Source: a virus. From it: a stretch of 41,339 nt of DNA. The notes beneath the pieces are model-generated. The model was not told where the DNA came from and did not search any database. It saw nothing but the letters and a program-made list of their open reading frames with translations. The stretch is taken from positions 1-41,339 of the IMG/VR virus record IMGVR_UViG_3300045988_044838; one strand, written 5' to 3'. Shown here one piece after another: positions 2,313-26,933 of this stretch. The position numbers and the translations under genes were made by a program. The stretch's first letter is position 1, and each line of letters starts with the position of its first letter.

Positions 2313-2711
2313 TCAATCCCGACCCAGTTCGGACATAAAGCGGCGAATGGCGTCGCGCTCCCTCTCAGTAGTAGCGTTATCCATCATCTCCTGAGCCTGC
2401 TCCATCATAGCCTCTTTGGAGTCGTGGCGACTGTATCCACCCATGCGCCCATCCCGGCTATAACGTCCCATGGAGTCCCGCTTCCGGCCACGGTAGCTGG
2501 AGCCGCGGGCATAAGTGCCGCGCATATCAGCCTCCCAATCCCCGGCCCGGCTGTATCCACCGTCCTCTTCCAACATTGCGATCTTGTCGATGTTCTTGAT
2601 GGTGTCGGTCAGCTTGTGAGCAGCTTCAAGGTCCCCGGCAGACATCTCCGGCTTGCGGGCGATCTCCTCCAACTCTTCGCAGAGCTTTTCTTTCAGTTCG
2701 TGCATATACAT
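2313..2711 (-). CDS. Hypothetical protein with R/G/Y/S-rich centre
   Basis: ATG at 2711 follows GAAAGGAGAG. It has GGYSR-type low-complexity repeats. No domain recognised. Confidence 0.6.
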   Translation of the reverse strand: MYMHELKEKLCEELEEIARKPEMSAGDLEAAHKLTDTIKNIDKIAMLEEDGGYSRAGDWEADMRGTYARGSSYRGRKRDSMGRYSRDGRMGGYSRHDSKEAMMEQAQEMMDNATTERERDAIRRFMSELGRD

Positions 2712-2724
2712 GTTGACTCTCCTT

Positions 2725-3147
2725 TCAAGCCACGCGCTCAACGATCAGGTTAGCATTTTCAACCTCAATCGTCTCCGCGCTGGTATTTTTGACTGCCACA
2801 GTCACGCAGCAGCCACGGGGGACCTCAATAAAGGCCGCAGCAAACACGTTGAAAAACTCGTCCACCGAGGCAGGGGTCACAATAGCAGTAGCGCTGCCCA
2901 GTGCCTCTCCCTCCACAGCGATGGCAACGGAGATAGGGCCTACCGCGCCGCCGGTGGGAATTGCAATGTTGCTGCCGAAAACCACTTTATAGCGGGCGCG
3001 GCACTGATTCGTCATTCCACGCAGGGTAACGATGCCGGAGCCGTCACGGTGCACGACGCAATTAGACCCGCTGACAGGCGTCTCCGTAAAGACCACGTTC
3101 TGATTAGCGGCTACCTGCTGGACAAATACTCCAGTAAATTCAGCCAT
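2725..3147 (-). CDS. Hypothetical beta-rich protein, possibly a BclA-C-terminal/C1q-like jelly-roll
   Basis: ATG at 3147 follows AAAGGA. The small-residue-rich sequence with alternating beta-like pattern resembles BclA-CTD-type domains. This is a weak similarity recalled from memory. Confidence 0.5.
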   Translation of the reverse strand: MAEFTGVFVQQVAANQNVVFTETPVSGSNCVVHRDGSGIVTLRGMTNQCRARYKVVFGSNIAIPTGGAVGPISVAIAVEGEALGSATAIVTPASVDEFFNVFAAAFIEVPRGCCVTVAVKNTSAETIEVENANLIVERVA

Positions 3148-5200: not shown

Positions 5201-5363
5201 ATTGCTTTCGGTCATCATACAAAAGCTCGTTCTGCCGGATAAACCCTTCAAGGCCGGAGAAGTCTCCCTCCGCCGCATACTTCTCGCAGGTGTCTCTTGC
5301 TGTGGACTCCGTGAAGCCGCAGGCCACCAGCCGGGCCACCAGTTCTGAACCATTCAGAATCAA
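5193..5363 (-). CDS. Small helical protein (56 aa), TTG start; not in the ORF track
   Basis: The alternative frame reads LILNGSELVARLVACGFTESTARDTCEKYAAEGDFSGLEGFIRQNELLYDDRKQYV. Its stop overlaps the ATG at 5200 (ATGTTTGA coupling). Confidence 0.4.
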   Translation of the reverse strand: MILNGSELVARLVACGFTESTARDTCEKYAAEGDFSGLEGFIRQNELLYDDRKQYV

Positions 5364-5462
5364 CTTAAAACACGTCCTTATATAAAAGATCAGAAGGCCG
5401 CAAGGAGGGCGGCGACGTGTACCAGCCCTTGTCCCTTACGTCCTCCTGATGATATTTTTGCA

Positions 5463-5500
5463 GAAAAAGGCCCCGCCTGGGTGGTATCCAAGCGGGGTTT
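5463..5500 (-). terminator. Rho-independent terminator ending the late/lysis operon
   Basis: In minus sense, the CCCCGC...GCGGGG stem is followed by CCTTTTTCTG. Confidence 0.65.
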
Positions 5501-5508
5501 AGGTGAAG

Positions 5509-5757
5509 TTATGTGAAATGTAGCTTCCGTGCAGTTCTTTCGACCTTTGAGACGATCCGTTTGACCCGGTAGGAAATGGTAGACCGCTCCCAGCCGAACT
5601 CCGCTGCAATGTCGATCTGCGGGACTTTGTCGATCAGGTAGCGCCGGGCAATGTCCGTATCATCATTCCCAAGATTAGCTTCCCGGATGGCCGTCTCCAT
5701 CTCGGAGCGCATAAGGCTATCCAGGCTATCCGGTAATCTGACACGGGCAGTTGCCAC
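5509..5757 (-). CDS. Small sigma-70 region-4-like HTH protein
   Basis: GTG start follows AAAGGA. ARRYLIDKVPQIDIAAEFGWERSTISYRVKRI resembles a sigma region 4 HTH. Confidence 0.6.
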   Translation of the reverse strand: MATARVRLPDSLDSLMRSEMETAIREANLGNDDTDIARRYLIDKVPQIDIAAEFGWERSTISYRVKRIVSKVERTARKLHFT

Positions 5758-7260: not shown

Positions 7261-7720
7261 TGGACACCTCCCCCAGGTCCTCCCACTTCACGCCCACGCT
7301 TCCGGGTTCCCACACGTTGTTGTCCTGACCGGACCGCCAGACATGACCGTCATAGGTGCAGCAGTCCCCGGTCATATACGGCGAAGTGGAGACAGCGATA
7401 AACGGCAGGGCCTTGGCCGGGTCTGTGGACCACACAAAGCCCCACTGTGCGGGCAGGTCCTCCGGCTCTTGGGTGTTGTAGATAGTGCTGTCATAGGGCT
7501 GGAGGAGACGCACCACACGCCCCGCTGTGGAACAGCAGACAAAGCCCGCCTTGCGTTCCAGCATGTTCATGGCCTCACAGGCCGCCGTAAAGCTGGGGAT
7601 GTAGTCCTCGGAGGCATACAGCTCCGTTCCCGTCATGTCCGAAGCCTGGGCCTGGAGGGTCTGTGCCCTCGCAAGCCCGGTATCCCGCATGGTGGTAAGT
7701 ACAAACTGCTTGTCCGTCAT
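7253..7720 (-). CDS. Hypothetical tail-fibre-associated protein (C-terminal W/Y-rich, CBM5/12-like motif)
   Basis: Overlapping start and stop with neighbours. The C-terminus is GDCCTYDGHVWRSGQDNNVWEPG. Confidence 0.55.
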   Translation of the reverse strand: MTDKQFVLTTMRDTGLARAQTLQAQASDMTGTELYASEDYIPSFTAACEAMNMLERKAGFVCCSTAGRVVRLLQPYDSTIYNTQEPEDLPAQWGFVWSTDPAKALPFIAVSTSPYMTGDCCTYDGHVWRSGQDNNVWEPGSVGVKWEDLGEVSNG

Positions 7721-8037
7721 ACTTCGTTCACGCCCTCTCTGATTGCTTTCGCAAGCTCCGCATAGGTCACATACTCCGGTTCAGGTTCCGGCTCCGGCTC
7801 TGGAGGCAGGGATTCCTTCCACGCTTCCCAGGCTTCGGTGTTCGGCTCCACGGTGTAGACCGTGCGGAAGAAGCCCTCCTCGTACTCCTCCTCATGGCTG
7901 GTGATGGTAACAAAGCCGTTGTAATCCACCACCGTCTCCGCCTGTTCATCCGTCAGTGGGATTGCGCCGGGAAAGGGATTGCTCTGCGGGGCCGGGTATG
8001 CTCCGCTGGGATTTGGGCGCGGAGTTAGGTAAATCAT
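7717..8037 (-). CDS. Hypothetical protein with EPEPEPEPE linker
   Basis: Coupled to its neighbours within the tail-fibre block. Confidence 0.55.
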   Translation of the reverse strand: MIYLTPRPNPSGAYPAPQSNPFPGAIPLTDEQAETVVDYNGFVTITSHEEEYEEGFFRTVYTVEPNTEAWEAWKESLPPEPEPEPEPEYVTYAELAKAIREGVNEV

Positions 8038-23703: not shown

Positions 23704-24882
23704 TCACCTCATTACCGGGAAATGCCGAACCAGAATAGTATTCGCAAAATATCGTATATCGTCCATGGCGTGGTCATCCGCCTTGATGACCTTGTCCACC
23801 GTTGAGTCCTCGTCCCAGCGGTATAGTCCAAATTCTCGGATAGCGTCCTTGCACCGGCGGTGTATTTTGAGTTTCCCGCTTTTGAGATAGACAGAGGTCC
23901 GCCGTATCCCGTCCATTACGTCATTGTTCGCTTTGACCACATGGAACTCATTGTGTCGGAATACTGTAGTGATAAAAGACGCCGCCGACGGGTCAATGAC
24001 CACATAGTCCACGTTATAACCGTCGGCCAGTTCCCGTATCGCCTGGTAATACTCCTCGTCGGTCAGTTGCTCCTGCGTCCCACGCCCGCTGTAATAATAC
24101 TCATTGATGCGGACAGCCCCTTGCGTTGTCACGCACCACAGGCCGGCAGAAAAGGGGTTGAGCGTTCCGTAATCCACAGAAATATAATACCGGCCCGCCG
24201 GCGGTTCCTCGTCCACGATGTTGCTCTCCCCAAACATGGGGTAGATCAGTCCCTCAGCCAGCGCCCACTGTCCCAAAATATAACGGTCATAAAAAACCGT
24301 GCCACGATACTCCCGTTTTAGGTTCTCCACAAAAGCCTCCGGGAGAAACGGATTATCGTCAATGGTATATGTCTGGCTAAAAATATCCGCTTTACTGTCC
24401 AGAAACACTTTCAACCAGTGATTCGGCCCCTGCGGATTATAAGTGCCGTCAAAGCACGAATACGCCTTATCCAGACGGCTTTTCAGCAGCTCAAAGACTT
24501 CCTGGCTCCAGTCCGCCACCTCGTCTCCATAGCAGTATTTGATTGATGCACCGCGGATTTTTGATACCTGCGTTACTTTTTCCGCTCCAAGACAGTAGCA
24601 CTTTTCCCCAAATATCCACGCCGTATTATCGCTGGAAATCGTGCCAACAAGATCGTCACCATAGATCGTTCGCATAGGCTCAAGTACATTCCGCTCAATG
24701 GTAGATTTAGTGACACCAAGAATAACCGTCAGACCGTCCTTGCCAACACGCTCCCGGATGCGGATTGGGATGATCCACCGGAAATCAAGGTAGGTTTTCC
24801 CGCTGCGGGTGGCCCCTCCCTTAAAATTCCAGCGGTGATGCCCCTCCCGGACAAATTCAGTTTGTTTCGGACTTAACAGCAT
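23704..24882 (-). CDS. terL: Terminase large subunit (PBSX/Terminase_3-like)
   Basis: It has a Walker A-like GGATRSGKT and a YGDEV Walker B-like segment, with a nuclease half. It lies upstream of the portal gene. Confidence 0.9.
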   Translation of the reverse strand: MLLSPKQTEFVREGHHRWNFKGGATRSGKTYLDFRWIIPIRIRERVGKDGLTVILGVTKSTIERNVLEPMRTIYGDDLVGTISSDNTAWIFGEKCYCLGAEKVTQVSKIRGASIKYCYGDEVADWSQEVFELLKSRLDKAYSCFDGTYNPQGPNHWLKVFLDSKADIFSQTYTIDDNPFLPEAFVENLKREYRGTVFYDRYILGQWALAEGLIYPMFGESNIVDEEPPAGRYYISVDYGTLNPFSAGLWCVTTQGAVRINEYYYSGRGTQEQLTDEEYYQAIRELADGYNVDYVVIDPSAASFITTVFRHNEFHVVKANNDVMDGIRRTSVYLKSGKLKIHRRCKDAIREFGLYRWDEDSTVDKVIKADDHAMDDIRYFANTILVRHFPVMR

Positions 24883-25348: not shown

Positions 25349-25981
25349 TCAAAGCTCCATATTGGGGTAAACTTTTTCCCACACTTTCATATGGTAAATA
25401 TTTACCTCACCGTAGTTAGCATCGAAAATCTTCCTCACGCCGTATCCCATCCGCTCACTTTCTCTTTTGAGTTTCCTCCAATCAAAGTCCTTATGAGACC
25501 GTCCATTCATGTGGGCAACTCTTTTGATGGAGTACCATTCTTTGCTCCGGTCCAGCTCTGCCTCCAGTGCCTTTCTTCTGTCCTGTTCTCCTTTGAGCAC
25601 AGTACACAGCCGGATCATAATATCCGGATTCATAATTGCCGCTTCAAGGGTTTCAGGAGTTATGTAGGCCCCATGCTTGCGGATAGACGGAAGCACCTCA
25701 TCAAAAATCCATTTTTCAAATCGTTCCGCCCCCGGCAGCTCTGACTTGGCTGCCAGACGGTAAATGTCACCCTCGGGGATGAACTTCATGGCCTGTTCAC
25801 CACCGTTGGTAGGGAGTCGGCGAATCACCGACCCCTTGCAATGAGTAGTGATTGCATCAGCGGGGCGTTTGTATCCCAGCGCCTTTGCCACATCACTCCC
25901 GCAGAACATCACCTTGCCGTCCTCTTCTATGGTCCGGATTTCTCCAAACTCCGGGTTGTTGAAAATCATAAGCTCATTCAT
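25349..25981 (-). CDS. Bro-N domain antirepressor-like protein
   Basis: FGEIRTIEEDGKVMFCGSDVAKALGY...GDIYRLAAKSELPGAERFEKWIFDEVLPSIRKHGAY is a classical Bro-N pattern. Confidence 0.85.
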   Translation of the reverse strand: MNELMIFNNPEFGEIRTIEEDGKVMFCGSDVAKALGYKRPADAITTHCKGSVIRRLPTNGGEQAMKFIPEGDIYRLAAKSELPGAERFEKWIFDEVLPSIRKHGAYITPETLEAAIMNPDIMIRLCTVLKGEQDRRKALEAELDRSKEWYSIKRVAHMNGRSHKDFDWRKLKRESERMGYGVRKIFDANYGEVNIYHMKVWEKVYPNMEL

Positions 25982-26551
25982 TTGAGGGTTCTCCTTTCGT
26001 ATATGTTAGGAGAGGCGGCGGGAGATTACCCCGCCATGCGTAACCCCTCAACATTGATCGTTCCGCCCCCGTCTCCTGCAACTGCGAGGCGGCATATTTG
26101 AGCGGGTGAGGATTTGCACCTCACATACAGGGACGCGTATAAACCTCGTTGCCCTGCCCTACGATTTATCAGTGCGTCTACTGGCATAGCCCACCCGCAG
26201 TTTCCCGCAAGTGACACACCCACTTTCGTGTCTATTCCGCCACCGCTCAGTCGTTATCTGCTCCGCATGTCGGCTTCGATTGCGAAACTCTGGAGCAGGT
26301 TAACGTGAAGGGAGTCCCCCGGCAGGAAACGTACAAGAGAGGCACTCCTTTCCGTTTAATATCTGCTCACTAGATACTCCTGCCGGGGGAGTGGGTTGTC
26401 CTTTGGGCCGTGGTTGGTGCATAGCCCGAAAGGGGAGGAAAAAGAAGGAGCATGGGGAAGTTACTCCCTCATGTTCCATTGTCGCATAGATGGCGCTTTT
26501 TGCTCATAAAACTTTATGAATATCCGATATTCTTTGTGAGACCATGAAGGG
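25982..26551 (-). ncRNA. Candidate large structured RNA / structured leader (570 nt, ORF-free)
   Basis: No credible ORF on either strand. There are many nested helices, including the perfect 12-bp pair 26316-26327/26378-26389. Two helices (26273-26288 and 26194-26211, the latter with a GAAA loop) pair only in minus sense through G-U. Confidence 0.45.
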
Positions 26552-26764
26552 TTACTCGTCCTCCATTTTACACAGCTCGTCCAAACTAATGTGATAATAT
26601 GCCGCAATCAATTTTAAAGCTGTCATCTTCGGTTCGACCTCTCCTCGCTCATATTTCCGAAGCGCATCCGGGCTTAACCCCATCAACTGTGATGTGACCG
26701 TCATGCTCCGAACTGGCCGCATAGTCTCCCGCAACTTTCTCAGCCTTTCCGGGAACTCACCCAT
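26552..26764 (-). CDS. Small XRE-family HTH protein
   Basis: The ATG at 26764 follows AGAAGGAGGA. ...SQLMGLSPDALRKYERGEVEPKMTALKLIAAYY is a Cro/C1-type HTH. Confidence 0.75.
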   Translation of the reverse strand: MGEFPERLRKLRETMRPVRSMTVTSQLMGLSPDALRKYERGEVEPKMTALKLIAAYYHISLDELCKMEDE

Positions 26765-26933
26765 CCATATCCTCCTTCTTGATCCAATACCGTCCCGCGC
26801 AGCGGTGGGCGGTAACGCAGGCGGTAGAAATCCGGCAGGGGCGAACACCAACATCCTCTGCTGCAGATTTGATCGACGGATACTCCTTCCGCTGGCCGTG
26901 ACGATCAATGGAGATCACTTCGGTTTCAGTCAT
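26757..26933 (-). CDS. Small NUMOD1/HTH-like protein (58 aa); not in the ORF track
   Basis: The product is MTETEVISIDRHGQRKEYPSIKSAAEDVGVRPCRISTACVTAHRCAGRYWIKKEDMDG. Its start overlaps the upstream stop and its stop overlaps the downstream ATG. Confidence 0.5.
   Translation of the reverse strand: MTETEVISIDRHGQRKEYPSIKSAAEDVGVRPCRISTACVTAHRCAGRYWIKKEDMDG

What the first reader, a model, noticed from the sequence alone, without database searches (positions are those of the whole stretch)
25982..26551. 570-nt ORF-free, densely structured segment at the early/late junction: candidate large ncRNA
This is the only long non-coding stretch in an otherwise tightly packed genome. It lies between the last early genes and the Bro/terminase late block. 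No frame has a credible ORF; the best are 59-65 aa of P/R/G-rich junk without an RBS. Nested helices are visible by eye. A perfect 12-bp pair (26316-26327 with 26378-26389) encloses three small hairpins. An outer GAGGGAG/CTCCCTT pairing encloses that, and several 6-9-bp hairpins follow. Two helices pair only in minus sense through G-U: GUUUCG-CAAU-CGAAGC at 26273-26288, and CUUGCGG-GAAA-CUGCGGG with a GNRA loop at 26194-26211. A 9-nt motif GGGCTATGC occurs twice in minus sense. The size and the prophage early/late location recall the ornate large RNAs ROOL and GOLLD, but I cannot verify family membership from memory. It could equally be a new class or a long regulatory leader, for example an antitermination element.
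Basis: partly seen in the sequence, partly recalled or inferred. Interest (0 to 1): 0.75.

Follow-up and report, generated by a model that had tools for sequence, protein, structure and literature searches.

The report
Phage tRNA-like RNA inside composite spacer
The 570-base gene-free stretch is not one giant RNA but a patchwork, and its conserved core is a 151-base RNA shaped like a leucine tRNA without an anticodon arm, from a large family in phages of Gram-positive bacteria (including the model phage SPP1) that is absent from Rfam and unannotated in the phage records examined.

Summary
Window 25982-26551 is ORF-free, lies between an XRE/HTH gene and a Bro-N/terminase block (all minus strand), and holds the reported helices and repeat.

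- No Rfam family, ROOL and GOLLD included, matches even at E<=10.
- Related phages reshuffle the region as separate modules.

The conserved core is 26099-26249 (minus), a tRNA-Leu-derived shell:
- 7-bp acceptor stem, U8/A14/A15/G18G19, a 3-bp D-stem, an invariant U48-like U, a 6-bp T-stem and the T-loop UGCAAAU;
- the anticodon and variable arms are replaced by a hypervariable body;
- here a 50-nt insertion splits G18|G19.

Evidence for the family:
- 14 of 16 shell pairs covary across 102 distinct sequences.
- A covariance model finds one copy in the window (60 bits).
- It finds independent copies in phi3T, Goe3, Listeria B054 and Leuconostoc LN34 (the SPP1 copy was in the training set), and prophage copies occur in about 50 bacterial species.
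- Copies often sit in phage tRNA arrays or just upstream of terminase genes.
- ARAGORN and Rfam miss it, and GenBank leaves it unannotated.

Function is unknown. My best guess is a stable, non-decoding tRNA mimic matured by RNase P and RNase Z. The flanks are a clade-specific 5' structured module and a widespread hairpin leader of the Bro/late genes.

The parts
26099..26249 (-). tRNA-Leu-like RNA. This is the conserved core and a member of a large phage family. Order 5'->3': acceptor UGAGCGG, U8 G9, D-stem GCG, D-loop AAUAG[insertion]GUAGA, hypervariable body, AU, T-stem GUGAGG, T-loop UGCAAAU, CCUCAC, acceptor CCGCUCA.
   Evidence: It is the only window match to model R1 (60.3 bits, E=1.6e-12, full length). 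The window sequence was in the training alignment. Independent members score 60-92 bits. For shell covariation.
26243..26249 (-). Acceptor stem, 5' strand (UGAGCGG). It pairs with 26099-26105 (CCGCUCA).
   Evidence: Inverted repeat I3. All 7 acceptor pairs show double-sided changes in the family.
26182..26231 (-). 50-nt insertion in the D-loop between G18 and G19. It holds two GNRA-capped hairpins (CAC-GAAA-GUG and CUUGCGG-GAAA-CUGCGGG) and one GGGCUAUGC copy.
   Evidence: Alignment A3 shows it as an insertion relative to 70 of the 72 sequences. Other family members have unrelated insertions of up to ~110 nt at the same point. For the fold.
26127..26157 (-). Variable-arm-like hairpin GCAGGG(19-nt loop)CCCUGU, directly 5' of the AU that precedes the T-stem.
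   Evidence: MFE fold. Dulem virus 33 has GUAGGG...CCCUAC here, a U-A to C-G change.
26106..26124 (-). T-arm: 6-bp stem GUGAGG/CCUCAC with the T-loop UGCAAAU (G at position 55).
   Evidence: All 6 pairs covary and 99% of cells are paired. The loop is UGCAAAU in the independent phage members that the model found. In alignment A2 the loop was fixed by the extraction pattern.
26063..26093 (-). 'p2' hairpin GCCGCCUCG-CAGUUGCAGGAGA-CGGGGGCGG. It starts 6 nt after the tRNA-like 3' end. Its loop holds an SD-like AGGAGA.
   Evidence: The exact 21-mer is in more than 119 IMG/VR contigs. In most of them it follows AT-rich promoter/operator-like DNA and leads Bro or TerS-like genes.
26009..26049 (-). Hairpin B (GAGGGG..GGCGGGG-UAAUC-UCCCGCC..CCUCUCC), the second element of the Bro leader.
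   Evidence: It is conserved together with p2 at ~79-92% identity in about 67 loci, including Flavonifractor phage Chenonceau. For the fold.
25979..25997 (-). Ribosome-binding site AAAGGAG and the ATG of the Bro-N gene.
   Evidence: Read from the sequence. ORF and Pfam.
26250..26442 (-). 5' structured module: H1 26400-26433; H2 26315-26390 (13-bp stem closing a three-way junction); H3 26258-26298 (contains GUUUCG-CAAU-CGAAGC).
   Evidence: z = -4.9, with 0 of 200 shuffles as stable. Homologs exist in only ~17 loci, all >=94% identical, so covariation cannot be tested. In L045, L115, L027 and L043 a TGnTATAAT promoter lies ~25 nt upstream of it and the tRNA-like element follows it.
26437..26473 (-). 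Terminator-like hairpin CAUGAGGGAG-UAACU-UCCCCAUG followed by CUCCUUCUUUUUCC.
   Evidence: Read from the sequence and the fold. Rfam gives only a weak stem-loop hit here. The consensus terminator scan did not list it, so this is a reading, not a call.
26552..26770 (-). Upstream gene: XRE-type HTH regulator.
   Evidence: Pfam HTH_3, E=1.3e-8.
25349..25981 (-). Downstream gene: Bro-N anti-repressor-like protein, followed by an HTH small-terminase-like gene and TerL.
   Evidence: Pfam Bro-N E=3.8e-21; Terminase_6N/6C for 23704-24882.

Best explanation
The gap is a mosaic of at least three separable non-coding modules on the minus strand.

Core module (shown). 26099-26249 is a gene for a tRNA-shaped RNA derived from tRNA-Leu.
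- It keeps the parts that make the L-shape and are read by tRNA-processing enzymes: a 7-bp acceptor stem, U8-A14, A15-U48, G18G19, the D-stem, and a T-arm with the T54/A58 positions.
- It has no anticodon stem-loop. A hypervariable body sits in that place.
- It has a 6-bp T-stem, giving a 13-bp acceptor/T stack.
- It has G instead of U at position 55.
- It has no conserved discriminator base and no encoded CCA.

How it probably works (inferred).
- It is transcribed with the neighbouring genes or tRNAs.
- RNase P cuts at its 5' end and RNase Z at its 3' end, as for a pre-tRNA.
- It accumulates as a stable RNA that cannot decode.
- The conserved elbow and acceptor engage a tRNA-binding host or phage factor.
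- The variable body and the insertions are the part that differs between phages.
- A decoy or modulator role against tRNA-directed host factors is my preferred guess, and it is untested.

A second effect in this window (inferred). Excision would also leave the downstream Bro/terminase mRNA starting 6 nt before the p2 hairpin. That is the same leader that in other phages follows promoter-like DNA.

The 5' 190-nt module is a clade-specific structured RNA segment of unknown role, co-transcribed upstream.
For: Family and structure.
- Exact 21-mers from the core each hit more than 119 IMG/VR contigs.
- In 102 distinct shells fetched only by the 5' D-arm pattern, 92.8% of cells pair and 12 of 18 pairs have double-sided changes. 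The covariation score is 0.412, against 0.154 for shuffles (0 of 500 reach it) and <=0.136 for slid partners.
- In the model-based alignment, 14 of 16 pairs have double-sided changes, 97.3% of cells pair, and the score is 0.452 against 0.158.
- The U48-like U is invariant without having been selected for. U8, A14, A15 and G18G19 were fixed by the search pattern. They recur in the four highest-scoring independent phage members the model found, phi3T-SPbeta, LN34, Dulem virus 33 and Goe3.
- Genuine tRNA-Leu genes of candidate-phyla-radiation bacteria and a deltaproteobacterium share the identical 23-nt D-arm.

Not a decoding tRNA.
- ARAGORN finds nothing in the window or in L001/L002.
- Rfam finds nothing at E<=10, even on an 80-nt minimal member.
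- The body ranges from 27 to 180 nt.
- The discriminator position is A42/T36/G12/C12.

tRNA-gene behaviour.
- 51 of 139 loci have tRNAs within 1.5 kb, all on the same strand. The element fills array slots with tRNA-like spacers.
- Tandem copies are separated by ~7 nt.
- Some copies stand alone with a -10 box upstream and a terminator downstream.

Spread.
- 50 of the 55 matching stretches in bacterial genomes carry the element. They come from about 50 species, mostly Bacillota, and the seven loci whose ORFs were checked look like prophage.
- 127 cultured-phage records match the shell consensus, in whole or in half. A few of them (Synechococcus phages) are genuine tRNA-Leu genes. None of the other listed matches carries an RNA annotation: SPP1, phi3T, Goe3, Listeria B054 and LP-037, Leuconostoc LN34, Enterococcus phiFL2A.
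- The model scores the phage copies outside its training set at 60-75 bits.

Mosaic nature.
Against: - No expression or processing data exist for any member, so excision by RNase P/Z, stability and CCA addition are all inferred from shape.
- Insertions at G18|G19 and within the T-loop (UG|CAAAU) in some members would alter the outer face of the elbow. RNase P is known to stack on that face (established knowledge), so processing may differ from that of a tRNA.
- No protein family is consistently encoded nearby, so the decoy idea has no partner.
- My shell sets were gathered with exact-match patterns and a pairing filter. This inflates the percentage of paired cells but not the diversity of pair types.
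- The unity or independence of the 5' module and the core in this window is not resolved. In some relatives one promoter appears to drive both.
Confidence: 0.6

Rival explanations
1. Processing signal only. The tRNA-like fold serves in cis as an RNase P/Z cleavage signal, as in mitochondrial tRNA punctuation. It separates early from late message and sets the 5' end of the Bro/terminase mRNA at the p2 hairpin. The excised RNA has no function of its own.
For: - The element recurs between a late regulator (ArpU-type or HTH) and HNH/TerS/TerL.
- In the window its 3' end is 6 nt from p2, which elsewhere follows promoter-like DNA.
- In SPP1 it sits inside the late operon just before the scaffold gene.
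Against: - Any tRNA would serve this purpose. It would not explain near-invariant D- and T-loop sequences with G55, ornate hypervariable bodies with extra T-loop hairpins (11 of 89 against 1.5 by chance), or tandem arrays of different copies.
- It would not explain copies inside pure tRNA arrays or stand-alone promoter-terminator units.
Confidence: 0.2
2. One large ornate RNA. The whole ~570 nt folds and acts as a single ROOL/GOLLD-like RNA.
For: - High predicted stability over the full length (z -3.4).
- Location in a phage at a site where tRNAs occur, as described for ROOL and GOLLD (PMC5737381).
- In L045-type relatives the 5' module and the core appear to share one promoter.
Against: - No ROOL, GOLLD or other large-RNA Rfam hit at E<=10.
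- The modules occur independently and in other orders in relatives.
- The 5' half has only near-identical homologs.
- The syntenic gap of phage Chenonceau has the same length but lacks a full core (E=0.16). It carries other motifs instead: int-alpA and a mini tRNA-like.
Confidence: 0.08
3. Decaying tRNA-Leu pseudogene or integration scar. The similarity to tRNA-Leu is a remnant with no function.
For: The D-arm is identical to that of real tRNA-Leu genes, and the anticodon arm is missing.
Against: - Compensatory changes keep three helices paired across hundreds of divergent copies.
- The family is present in strictly lytic phages (SPP1, Goe3), which do not integrate.
- The same non-tRNA features (6-bp T-stem, G55) recur throughout.
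Confidence: 0.02
4. DNA-level site. The conserved ends are recombination, packaging (cos/pac) or operator sites that flank a variable cassette, and they do not act as RNA.
For: - Highly conserved ~25-nt ends flank variable DNA.
- The position is near terminase genes and, in some records, near genome ends.
- p2 itself lies next to promoter-like DNA, and its stem shows G-C/G-U/G-A variation rather than clean compensation.
Against: - The two conserved ends of the core covary with each other across 27-180 nt of unrelated sequence, and G-U pairs are tolerated.
- The strand always agrees with neighbouring tRNAs.
- The element also lies far from terminase genes in jumbo-phage tRNA arrays.
- For p2 alone, this rival remains open.
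Confidence: 0.04

Closest known systems
tRNA-Leu (class II bacterial tRNA)
   Same: - 7-bp acceptor stem, U8, the 3-bp D-stem GCG/CGC, the D-loop AAUAGGUAGA with G18G19, an A15/U48-type pair, and the T54 and A58 positions.
- The 23-nt D-arm is identical to that of real tRNA-Leu genes.
- It sits in tRNA arrays on the tRNA strand.
   Different: - No anticodon stem-loop; the body is 27-180 nt and not alignable between members.
- 6-bp T-stem, giving a 13-bp stack.
- G55 instead of U55.
- Discriminator base not conserved and no CCA.
- Insertions inside the D- and T-loops.
- Not called by ARAGORN or by the Rfam tRNA model.
tmRNA (its tRNA-like domain plus a large internal insert)
   Same: tRNA-like acceptor and T-arm ends enclose a large non-tRNA interior. 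It can be phage-encoded and lie among tRNAs. Real tmRNAs occur next to family members in L062, L363 and L368.
   Different: - A true D-stem is present here.
- No G3-U70, no CCA, no tag reading frame and no pseudoknot series were detected.
- Much smaller: full-length members span about 80-235 nt.
- No Rfam or ARAGORN tmRNA call.
Bacterial and phage Y RNA-like YrlA (tRNA-mimicking module bound by the Ro60 homolog Rsr)
   Same: A non-decoding tRNA mimic found in bacteria and phages, described as a substrate of tRNA enzymes (PMC4201824, as listed; my knowledge of that paper).
   Different: - In YrlA the tRNA-like module is internal and the RNA ends form the Rsr-binding helix. Here the ends are the acceptor stem.
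- No Y RNA family matched in the Rfam scans.
- The neighbour clustering gave no recurrent partner protein. The clusters were not annotated, so an rsr gene was not searched for directly.
ROOL and GOLLD large RNAs
   Same: Phage or prophage location, often beside tRNAs, function unknown (PMC5737381).
   Different: - Those are ~580-800-nt RNAs with their own conserved architecture.
- No model match here, nor in 18 bacterial loci that carry the element.
Phage T4 'species 1 and 2' stable RNAs in the tRNA cluster (from memory, not tested)
   Same: Small stable RNAs of unknown function, encoded among phage tRNA genes and matured with them.
   Different: No sequence or structure comparison was made here. 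T4 belongs to a different host phylum.

Membership tests
ROOL (Rfam) | Match to the ROOL covariance model (~580 nt, multistem junctions, pseudoknots) | tested here: not met
   No hit at the gathering threshold over the whole window. No hit at E<=10 on 25800-26800, both strands.
GOLLD (Rfam) | Match to the GOLLD covariance model | tested here: not met
   Same searches, no hit. No hit either in 144 kb around 18 bacterial copies.
tRNA (functional, decoding) | Cloverleaf with an anticodon stem and a 7-nt anticodon loop | tested here: not met
   ARAGORN finds 0 genes. The Rfam tRNA model is silent at E<=10, even on an 80-nt member. The body is hypervariable and 27-180 nt long. A short hairpin after the D-stem is not enriched over shuffles (23 against 20.5).
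tRNA (functional, decoding) | 12-bp acceptor/T stack (7+5) and a UUCRANY T-loop | tested here: not met
   The stack is 7+6 bp, and the sixth T-stem pair is G-C, G-U or A-U in all cells. The loop is UGCAAAU.
tRNA-like fold (L-shape core) | Acceptor, D and T helices supported by covariation, plus U8/A14, A15/U48, G18G19, T54/A58 | tested here: met
   14 of 16 pairs have double-sided changes and 97.3% of cells pair. The U48-like position is invariant without selection. The D-loop residues recur in the four highest-scoring independent model hits, phi3T-SPbeta, LN34, Dulem virus 33 and Goe3. The three-dimensional fold itself was not tested.
tRNA-Leu identity (chargeable by LeuRS) | Discriminator A73 (E. 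coli rule, from established knowledge) and a 3' CCA | tested here: not met
   The position after the acceptor stem is A42/T36/G12/C12, and no CCA is encoded. Post-transcriptional CCA addition and charging cannot be tested with these tools.
tmRNA | Rfam or ARAGORN tmRNA call with a tag peptide frame | tested here: not met
   No call in the window. The same tools do call real tmRNAs in L062, L363 and L368.
The new tRNA-Leu-like phage family (model R1, built here) | Full-length match to R1: the shell with 16 base pairs | tested here: met
   Window 26099-26249(-) scores 60.3 bits, E=1.6e-12, model positions 1-112. The window sequence was in the training set. The shell alone matches the family consensus at every invariant column.
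Intrinsic terminator / antitermination leader (for 26437-26473 and p2) | GC-rich hairpin followed by a U-run, or a demonstrated effect on read-through | tested here: inconclusive
   A hairpin plus CUUCUUUUU is visible at 26437-26473, but the consensus scan did not call it. p2 has no U-run. Read-through cannot be tested here.

The most novel reading that the evidence does not exclude
Phages of Gram-positive bacteria (and some others) carry a previously undescribed class of RNA. A tRNA-Leu shell, matured like a tRNA but unable to decode, works as a natural 'tRNA scaffold'. It displays hypervariable RNA modules in three places: in the position of the anticodon and variable arms, in the D-loop at the tip of the elbow, and in the T-loop at the tip of the elbow. 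Phages keep one copy or arrays of different copies. The displayed modules act as decoys or inhibitors of tRNA-directed host defences, or of other tRNA-binding factors.
Probability: 0.25. Interest if true: 0.9.

Novelty: new variant of a known kind. Interest (0 to 1): 0.68.

Why it matters
tRNA mimics are known, but this one seems to be a large unrecorded family.
- It numbers at least some hundreds of copies.
- Its covariation is clean.
- It sits unannotated in decades-old model phages (SPP1, phi3T, SPO1-like phages, Listeria and dairy phages) and in gut and rumen viromes.
- It is missed by tRNA finders and by Rfam, and it is often buried under 'hypothetical protein' calls.

Because SPP1 and B. 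subtilis are genetically tractable, its processing, binding partners and phenotype could be tested directly.

It also bears on three other questions:
- how to read the gene-free gap upstream of terminase genes in many temperate phages;
- what phage 'tRNA arrays' really contain;
- whether phages counter tRNA-targeting defences with non-decoding tRNA look-alikes.

If it turns out to be only a processing signal, it is still a useful annotation feature.

Tried and rejected
- Rfam at the gathering threshold (whole window) and at E<=10 (region, and a minimal member): nothing relevant. The weak rli48, psbA-2 and Mahella-1 hits are chance or generic stem-loops.
- ARAGORN on the window and two relatives: no call.
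- Coding: the three 59-65-aa ORFs have no Pfam hit.
- BLASTN of the region against 50,697 phage records: only two short hits. Sequence search alone hides the family, and a 66-nt shell consensus was needed to find it.
- A partner protein: clustering 2,792 neighbouring ORFs from 176 loci gave no family present in more than 16 loci. The top clusters are terminase subunits, HTH, HNH and Bro.
- A remnant anticodon-arm hairpin after the D-stem looked convincing by eye but is not enriched over shuffles. Dropped.
- Covariation for the 5' module is impossible, because all homologs are >=94% identical.
- Covariation for p2: the fetched set is fixed by the search pattern. The one variable stem position shows G-C, G-U and G-A, which is uninformative.
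- A sigma-70 promoter in the gap on the minus strand: the scan found none. TGCGACAAT at 26478-26486 is only my reading of the sequence.
- Literature: eight full-text searches and six papers gave no description of this RNA. The SPP1 re-annotation paper does not contain the word tRNA. The library lacks most subscription journals, so an earlier description cannot be excluded.
- The 14-nt complementarity between the D-loop insertion and p2 (pair I2) is absent from relatives that carry other insertions. Treated as chance.
Full report
**Setting.** All credible genes around the finding are on the minus strand.
- 26552-26770 encodes an XRE-type HTH protein (Pfam HTH_3, E=1.3e-8).
- 25349-25981 encodes a Bro-N protein (E=3.8e-21).
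- An HTH small-terminase-like gene and TerL follow.
- Any RNA from the 570-nt gap is therefore most likely minus-sense, and the later evidence agrees.

**Check of the observation.**
- The gap has only 59-65-aa ORFs, and these have no family match.
- The perfect inverted repeat is present and is 13 nt (26315-26327 / 26378-26390). GCATAGCCC occurs twice.
- The two hairpins that need G-U pairs in minus sense are in the predicted folds.
- Folding energy is beyond all shuffles on both strands (z -3.4 and -3.8).
- Two details are off. Two hairpins, not three, sit inside the 13-bp stem. The window also has other 300-400-nt ORF-poor gaps, although this one is the longest.

**Known RNA families.**
- The Rfam 15 gathering search of the whole window gives one hit, RAGATH-31 at 5393-5446(-), far from the finding.
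- A permissive search (E<=10) of 25800-26800 gives three weak hits that do not matter, and no ROOL, GOLLD, tRNA or tmRNA.
- ARAGORN finds no tRNA or tmRNA.

**Relatives show a mosaic.**
- BLASTN against cultured phages finds only two ~90-nt matches.
- One is in Flavonifractor phage Chenonceau. That phage has the same gene order (regulator, ~580-nt gap, anti-repressor, TerS, TerL).
- The three-way alignment shows conservation only in blocks.
- The two blocks are 36 nt apart in 19 loci, as in the window. They are 500-1400 nt apart in others, and each occurs alone in most.
- A BLAST of the window region against all fetched loci gives separate coverage plateaus. The ~300-nt 5' part is covered by about 6-17 loci, the core's T-arm by about 110, and the 3' hairpin pair by about 67-137.
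- Only L042 (99.9% identical, the same phage) and L068 (92%) share the whole region.

**The core is a tRNA-Leu-like shell.** Lining up the sequences anchored on the first 21-mer shows a constant frame:
- 5' NNNGCGG-UG-GCGGAAUAGGUAGACGC;
- a variable stretch;
- (C)AUG-NNAGG-UGCAAAU-CCUNN-CCGCNNN 3'.

In tRNA terms the frame reads as follows.
- A 7-bp acceptor stem, then U8 and G9.
- A 3-bp D-stem plus the G13/A22 position.
- The class II D-loop with A14, A15 and G18G19.
- A U at the place of U48.
- A T-arm followed by the acceptor 3' strand.

The 23-nt D-arm is identical to that of genuine tRNA-Leu genes in candidate-phyla-radiation bacteria and a deltaproteobacterium, which the genome scan picked up alongside the family.

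The frame departs from a tRNA in several ways.
- Nothing alignable stands where the anticodon and variable arms should be. The body is 27-180 nt, median 77.
- The T-stem has six pairs, so the acceptor/T stack is 13 bp.
- Position 55 is G.
- The base after the acceptor stem is not conserved (A42/T36/G12/C12), and no CCA follows.
- Some members carry insertions of up to ~110 nt between G18 and G19.
- Others carry insertions inside the T-loop between UG and CAAAU.
- About 12% of bodies hold an extra canonical T-arm hairpin (GGUUCRANUCC): 11 of 89, against 1.5 expected.

In the window the element is 26099-26249(-). A hairpin at 26127-26157 stands where a variable arm would end.

**Covariation.**
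- To avoid circularity for the T-arm and the acceptor 3' strand, I fetched loci using only the 5' D-arm pattern.
- I cut out 102 distinct 68-nt shells. This step required at least 6 of 7 acceptor pairs and at least 5 of 6 T-stem pairs, which inflates the percentage paired.
- On that alignment (A2) 92.8% of cells pair and 12 of 18 pairs have changes on both sides, in 309 cells.
- The covariation score is 0.412, against 0.154 for shuffles (0 of 500 reach it) and 0.07-0.14 when partners are slid.
- All six T-stem pairs vary on both sides. The three outer acceptor pairs do too, and the middle D-stem pair switches C-G to U-A in 8 sequences.
- I then built covariance model R1 from 72 full-length members (A3; 112 positions, 16 pairs) and searched 100 of those loci.
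- This gave 114 hits. Their model-fitted alignment (A4) shows 97.3% pairing, 14 of 16 pairs with double-sided changes, and a score of 0.452 against 0.158 (slid <=0.105).
- G-U pairs are tolerated at several positions, and every nearby tRNA lies on the same strand as the element. The functional strand is therefore the one given.

**The window has exactly one member.**
- With filters off, R1 finds 26099-26249(-) at 60.3 bits (E=1.6e-12). Nothing else scores above 11 bits. The window sequence was in the training alignment.
- Independent tests gave full-length hits: phi3T-SPbeta 74.7 bits, Leuconostoc LN34 72.4, Dulem virus 33 70.9, Goe3 67.2, Listeria B054 64.3, LP-037 60.0. Several of these have different acceptor and D-stem sequences.
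- SPP1 scores 80.7 bits, but it was in the training set.
- Chenonceau has no full member (E=0.16).

**Where the family lives.**
- Bacterial genomes: of 55 matching stretches, 50 carry the element and 3 are real tRNA-Leu genes. They come from about 50 species, mostly Bacillota: Bacillus, Paenibacillus, Cohnella, Levilactobacillus, and many Clostridia, Oscillospiraceae and Lachnospiraceae. Single hits come from Fusobacterium, a Bacteroidales MAG, Pseudolabrys, Succinivibrio and Neomarinimicrobiota.
- Context in genomes: the seven loci checked look like prophage. In several of them the element lies between a small regulator and HNH/TerS/TerL.
- Cultured phages: 127 records match the shell consensus in whole or in half, and a few of them (Synechococcus phages) are real tRNA-Leu genes.
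- SPP1: the element lies between gene 9 and scaffold gene 11, partly under the doubtful 'gene 10'.
- phi3T-type phages: it follows the HBsu-like gene.
- Goe3: it sits in the tRNA array.
- phiFL2A: it sits in the ArpU-to-TerS gap.
- LN34: it lies after an HNH gene near the genome end.
- No listed match outside the real tRNA-Leu genes carries an RNA annotation.
- The 2018 SPP1 re-annotation paper does not mention tRNA at all.
- My other searches found no description of such an RNA.
- The 2023 catalogue of 10,006 viral candidate RNAs discusses tRNA-like candidates only where ARAGORN overlaps them, and ARAGORN does not call this family.

**Behaviour like a tRNA gene.**
- 51 of 139 loci have tRNAs within 1.5 kb, all co-oriented.
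- In big arrays the element fills a slot with ~10-nt spacers. For example, L368 7619-7728 lies between tRNAs that end at 7608 and start at 7739.
- Several contigs carry two to four different copies. Some are in tandem with ~7-nt spacers (L256 11363-11854).
- Others stand alone with a -10 box upstream and a terminator 40-85 nt downstream (L286, L295, L313).
- No protein family is a constant neighbour. The commonest are terminase subunits 1-2 kb downstream.

**The other modules in the window.**
- *p2 and hairpin B.* p2 is at 26063-26093, and hairpin B (26009-26049) follows it. In most loci p2 sits directly after AT-rich DNA that holds a TTGTCA box and palindromes or direct repeats. It leads either a Bro-N gene, as here, or a TerS-like gene.
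- In the window the same leader starts 6 nt after the tRNA-like 3' end.
- The p2 loop exposes AGGAGA. This recalls the SD-like 5' stabilisers of Bacillus mRNAs, which is my own knowledge and untested here.
- Whether p2 acts as RNA or as a promoter-proximal DNA site is open, because its stem variation is not compensatory.
- In Chenonceau and Dulem virus 33 the stretch just before the next gene carries the Rfam motifs int-alpA and skipping-rope. The window lacks both.
- *5' module.* 26250-26442 is very stable (z -4.9), but its homologs are all >=94% identical, so nothing can be said from covariation.
- In L045, L115, L027 and L043 it begins ~25 nt after a TGnTATAAT promoter, and the tRNA-like element follows it. 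In the L045-group flanks listed (L027, L108, L115) a tRNA-like sequence comes next.
- This suggests a dedicated non-coding transcription unit in those phages.
- *Terminator-like hairpin.* 26437-26473 looks like a hairpin with a U-run after the HTH gene. The consensus scan did not call it.

**What it most likely does.**
- Shown: a conserved, covarying tRNA-Leu-like fold without decoding parts. It is placed like a tRNA gene or just upstream of the late/packaging genes.
- Inferred from what is established about tRNA enzymes: RNase P and RNase Z read the acceptor/T-arm and the elbow, not the anticodon arm. The RNA should therefore be cut out like a tRNA and be stable.
- Also inferred: a 13-bp stack and G55 should keep it away from EF-Tu and TruB, much as the 13-bp stack does for tRNA-Sec. 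A variable discriminator argues against a conserved charging role.
- The near-invariant elbow sequences imply a specific partner. The hypervariable, module-swapping body, the elbow insertions and the multi-copy arrays look like arms-race or host-adaptation features.
- I therefore favour a trans-acting tRNA mimic (a decoy or modulator of a tRNA-binding factor). A cis effect on mRNA processing is a secondary consequence in contexts like this window.
- The pure 'processing signal' reading is the main rival. I put about 0.6 on the composite-region-plus-excised-tRNA-mimic account as a whole, and about 0.25 on the specific decoy/scaffold reading.

**Verdict.**
- It is not a ROOL/GOLLD-type giant RNA.
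- It is a mosaic whose conserved heart is a member of a large family of phage tRNA-Leu-like RNAs. As far as Rfam 15, ARAGORN, the GenBank annotations and the searchable literature show, that family has not been described.

Noticed in passing
window 5393-5446 (-): Full-length match to Rfam RAGATH-31 (76 bits against a gathering score of 71.8, E=3.4e-14). It lies in another ORF-poor gap (5243-5650).
   Followed up: no
L002 (Flavonifractor phage Chenonceau) 3255-3304 (-): A 50-nt mini tRNA-like in the syntenic gap: acceptor GCCAUC/GGUGGC, a D-loop-like UUAGCUCAACUGGUU, a canonical T-arm GGAGGUUCGAUUCCUCC, then UCCA. It has no anticodon arm and ARAGORN does not call it. The window has GCUCCAGAG at the matching place but no such fold.
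   Followed up: partly
L002 2922-2991 (-) and L001 (Dulem virus 33) 2733-2802 (-): The Rfam motifs int-alpA (49.6 bits) and skipping-rope (53.8 bits) occupy the last part of the equivalent gap, just upstream of the next gene. The window has no counterpart. The slot seems to collect different orphan RNA motifs.
   Followed up: partly
L380 (SPP1, NC_004166.2) 2618-2664 (+): Right after the SPP1 family member lies a second small tRNA-like piece, GGACGG...GCGGGUUCAAUUCCCGGAGUCCG followed by UUUUU. It has a canonical T-arm and may double as a terminator.
   Followed up: no
L256 11363-11854 (-); also L294, L231, L237, L323, L285, L310, L265, L316: Two to four different family members per contig. In L256 three are in tandem with ~7-nt spacers, like a tRNA array made of tRNA mimics with different bodies.
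   Followed up: partly
L288, L280, L239, L318, L255, L332, L356 (IMG/VR and genome loci): Members with 8-100-nt insertions inside the T-loop, between UG and CAAAU. These mirror the D-loop insertions between G18 and G19, so both sit at the tip of the elbow.
   Followed up: partly
L036 about 380-460 nt upstream of its element; L062 about 500-900 nt upstream: ARAGORN calls a tRNA with anticodon CTA (printed as tRNA-Pyl; possibly an amber suppressor) in L036 and a tmRNA in L062 beside family members. This hints at phages with recoding or a large translation toolkit.
   Followed up: no
window 26080-26093 and 26189-26202: A 14-nt, 79% complementary match between the D-loop insertion of the tRNA-like RNA and the 5' strand and loop of the p2 hairpin. 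Relatives with other insertions lack it, so it is probably chance.
   Followed up: partly
L115, L108, L027 and similar loci, directly 3' of the element: A tRNA-Trp-like sequence (anticodon loop CUCCAAA) with an aberrant T-arm that ARAGORN does not call. The near-identical sequence in L096 and L119 is called tRNA-Trp.
   Followed up: no
PMC12282133 (Listeria phage CKA15 transcriptome): The paper reports that two or three unannotated non-coding loci near the tRNA genes make up as much as ~67% of phage transcripts, and its authors guess they are Y RNAs. Listeria phages are among the hits to the family, but I did not check whether the CKA15 loci are members.
   Followed up: no
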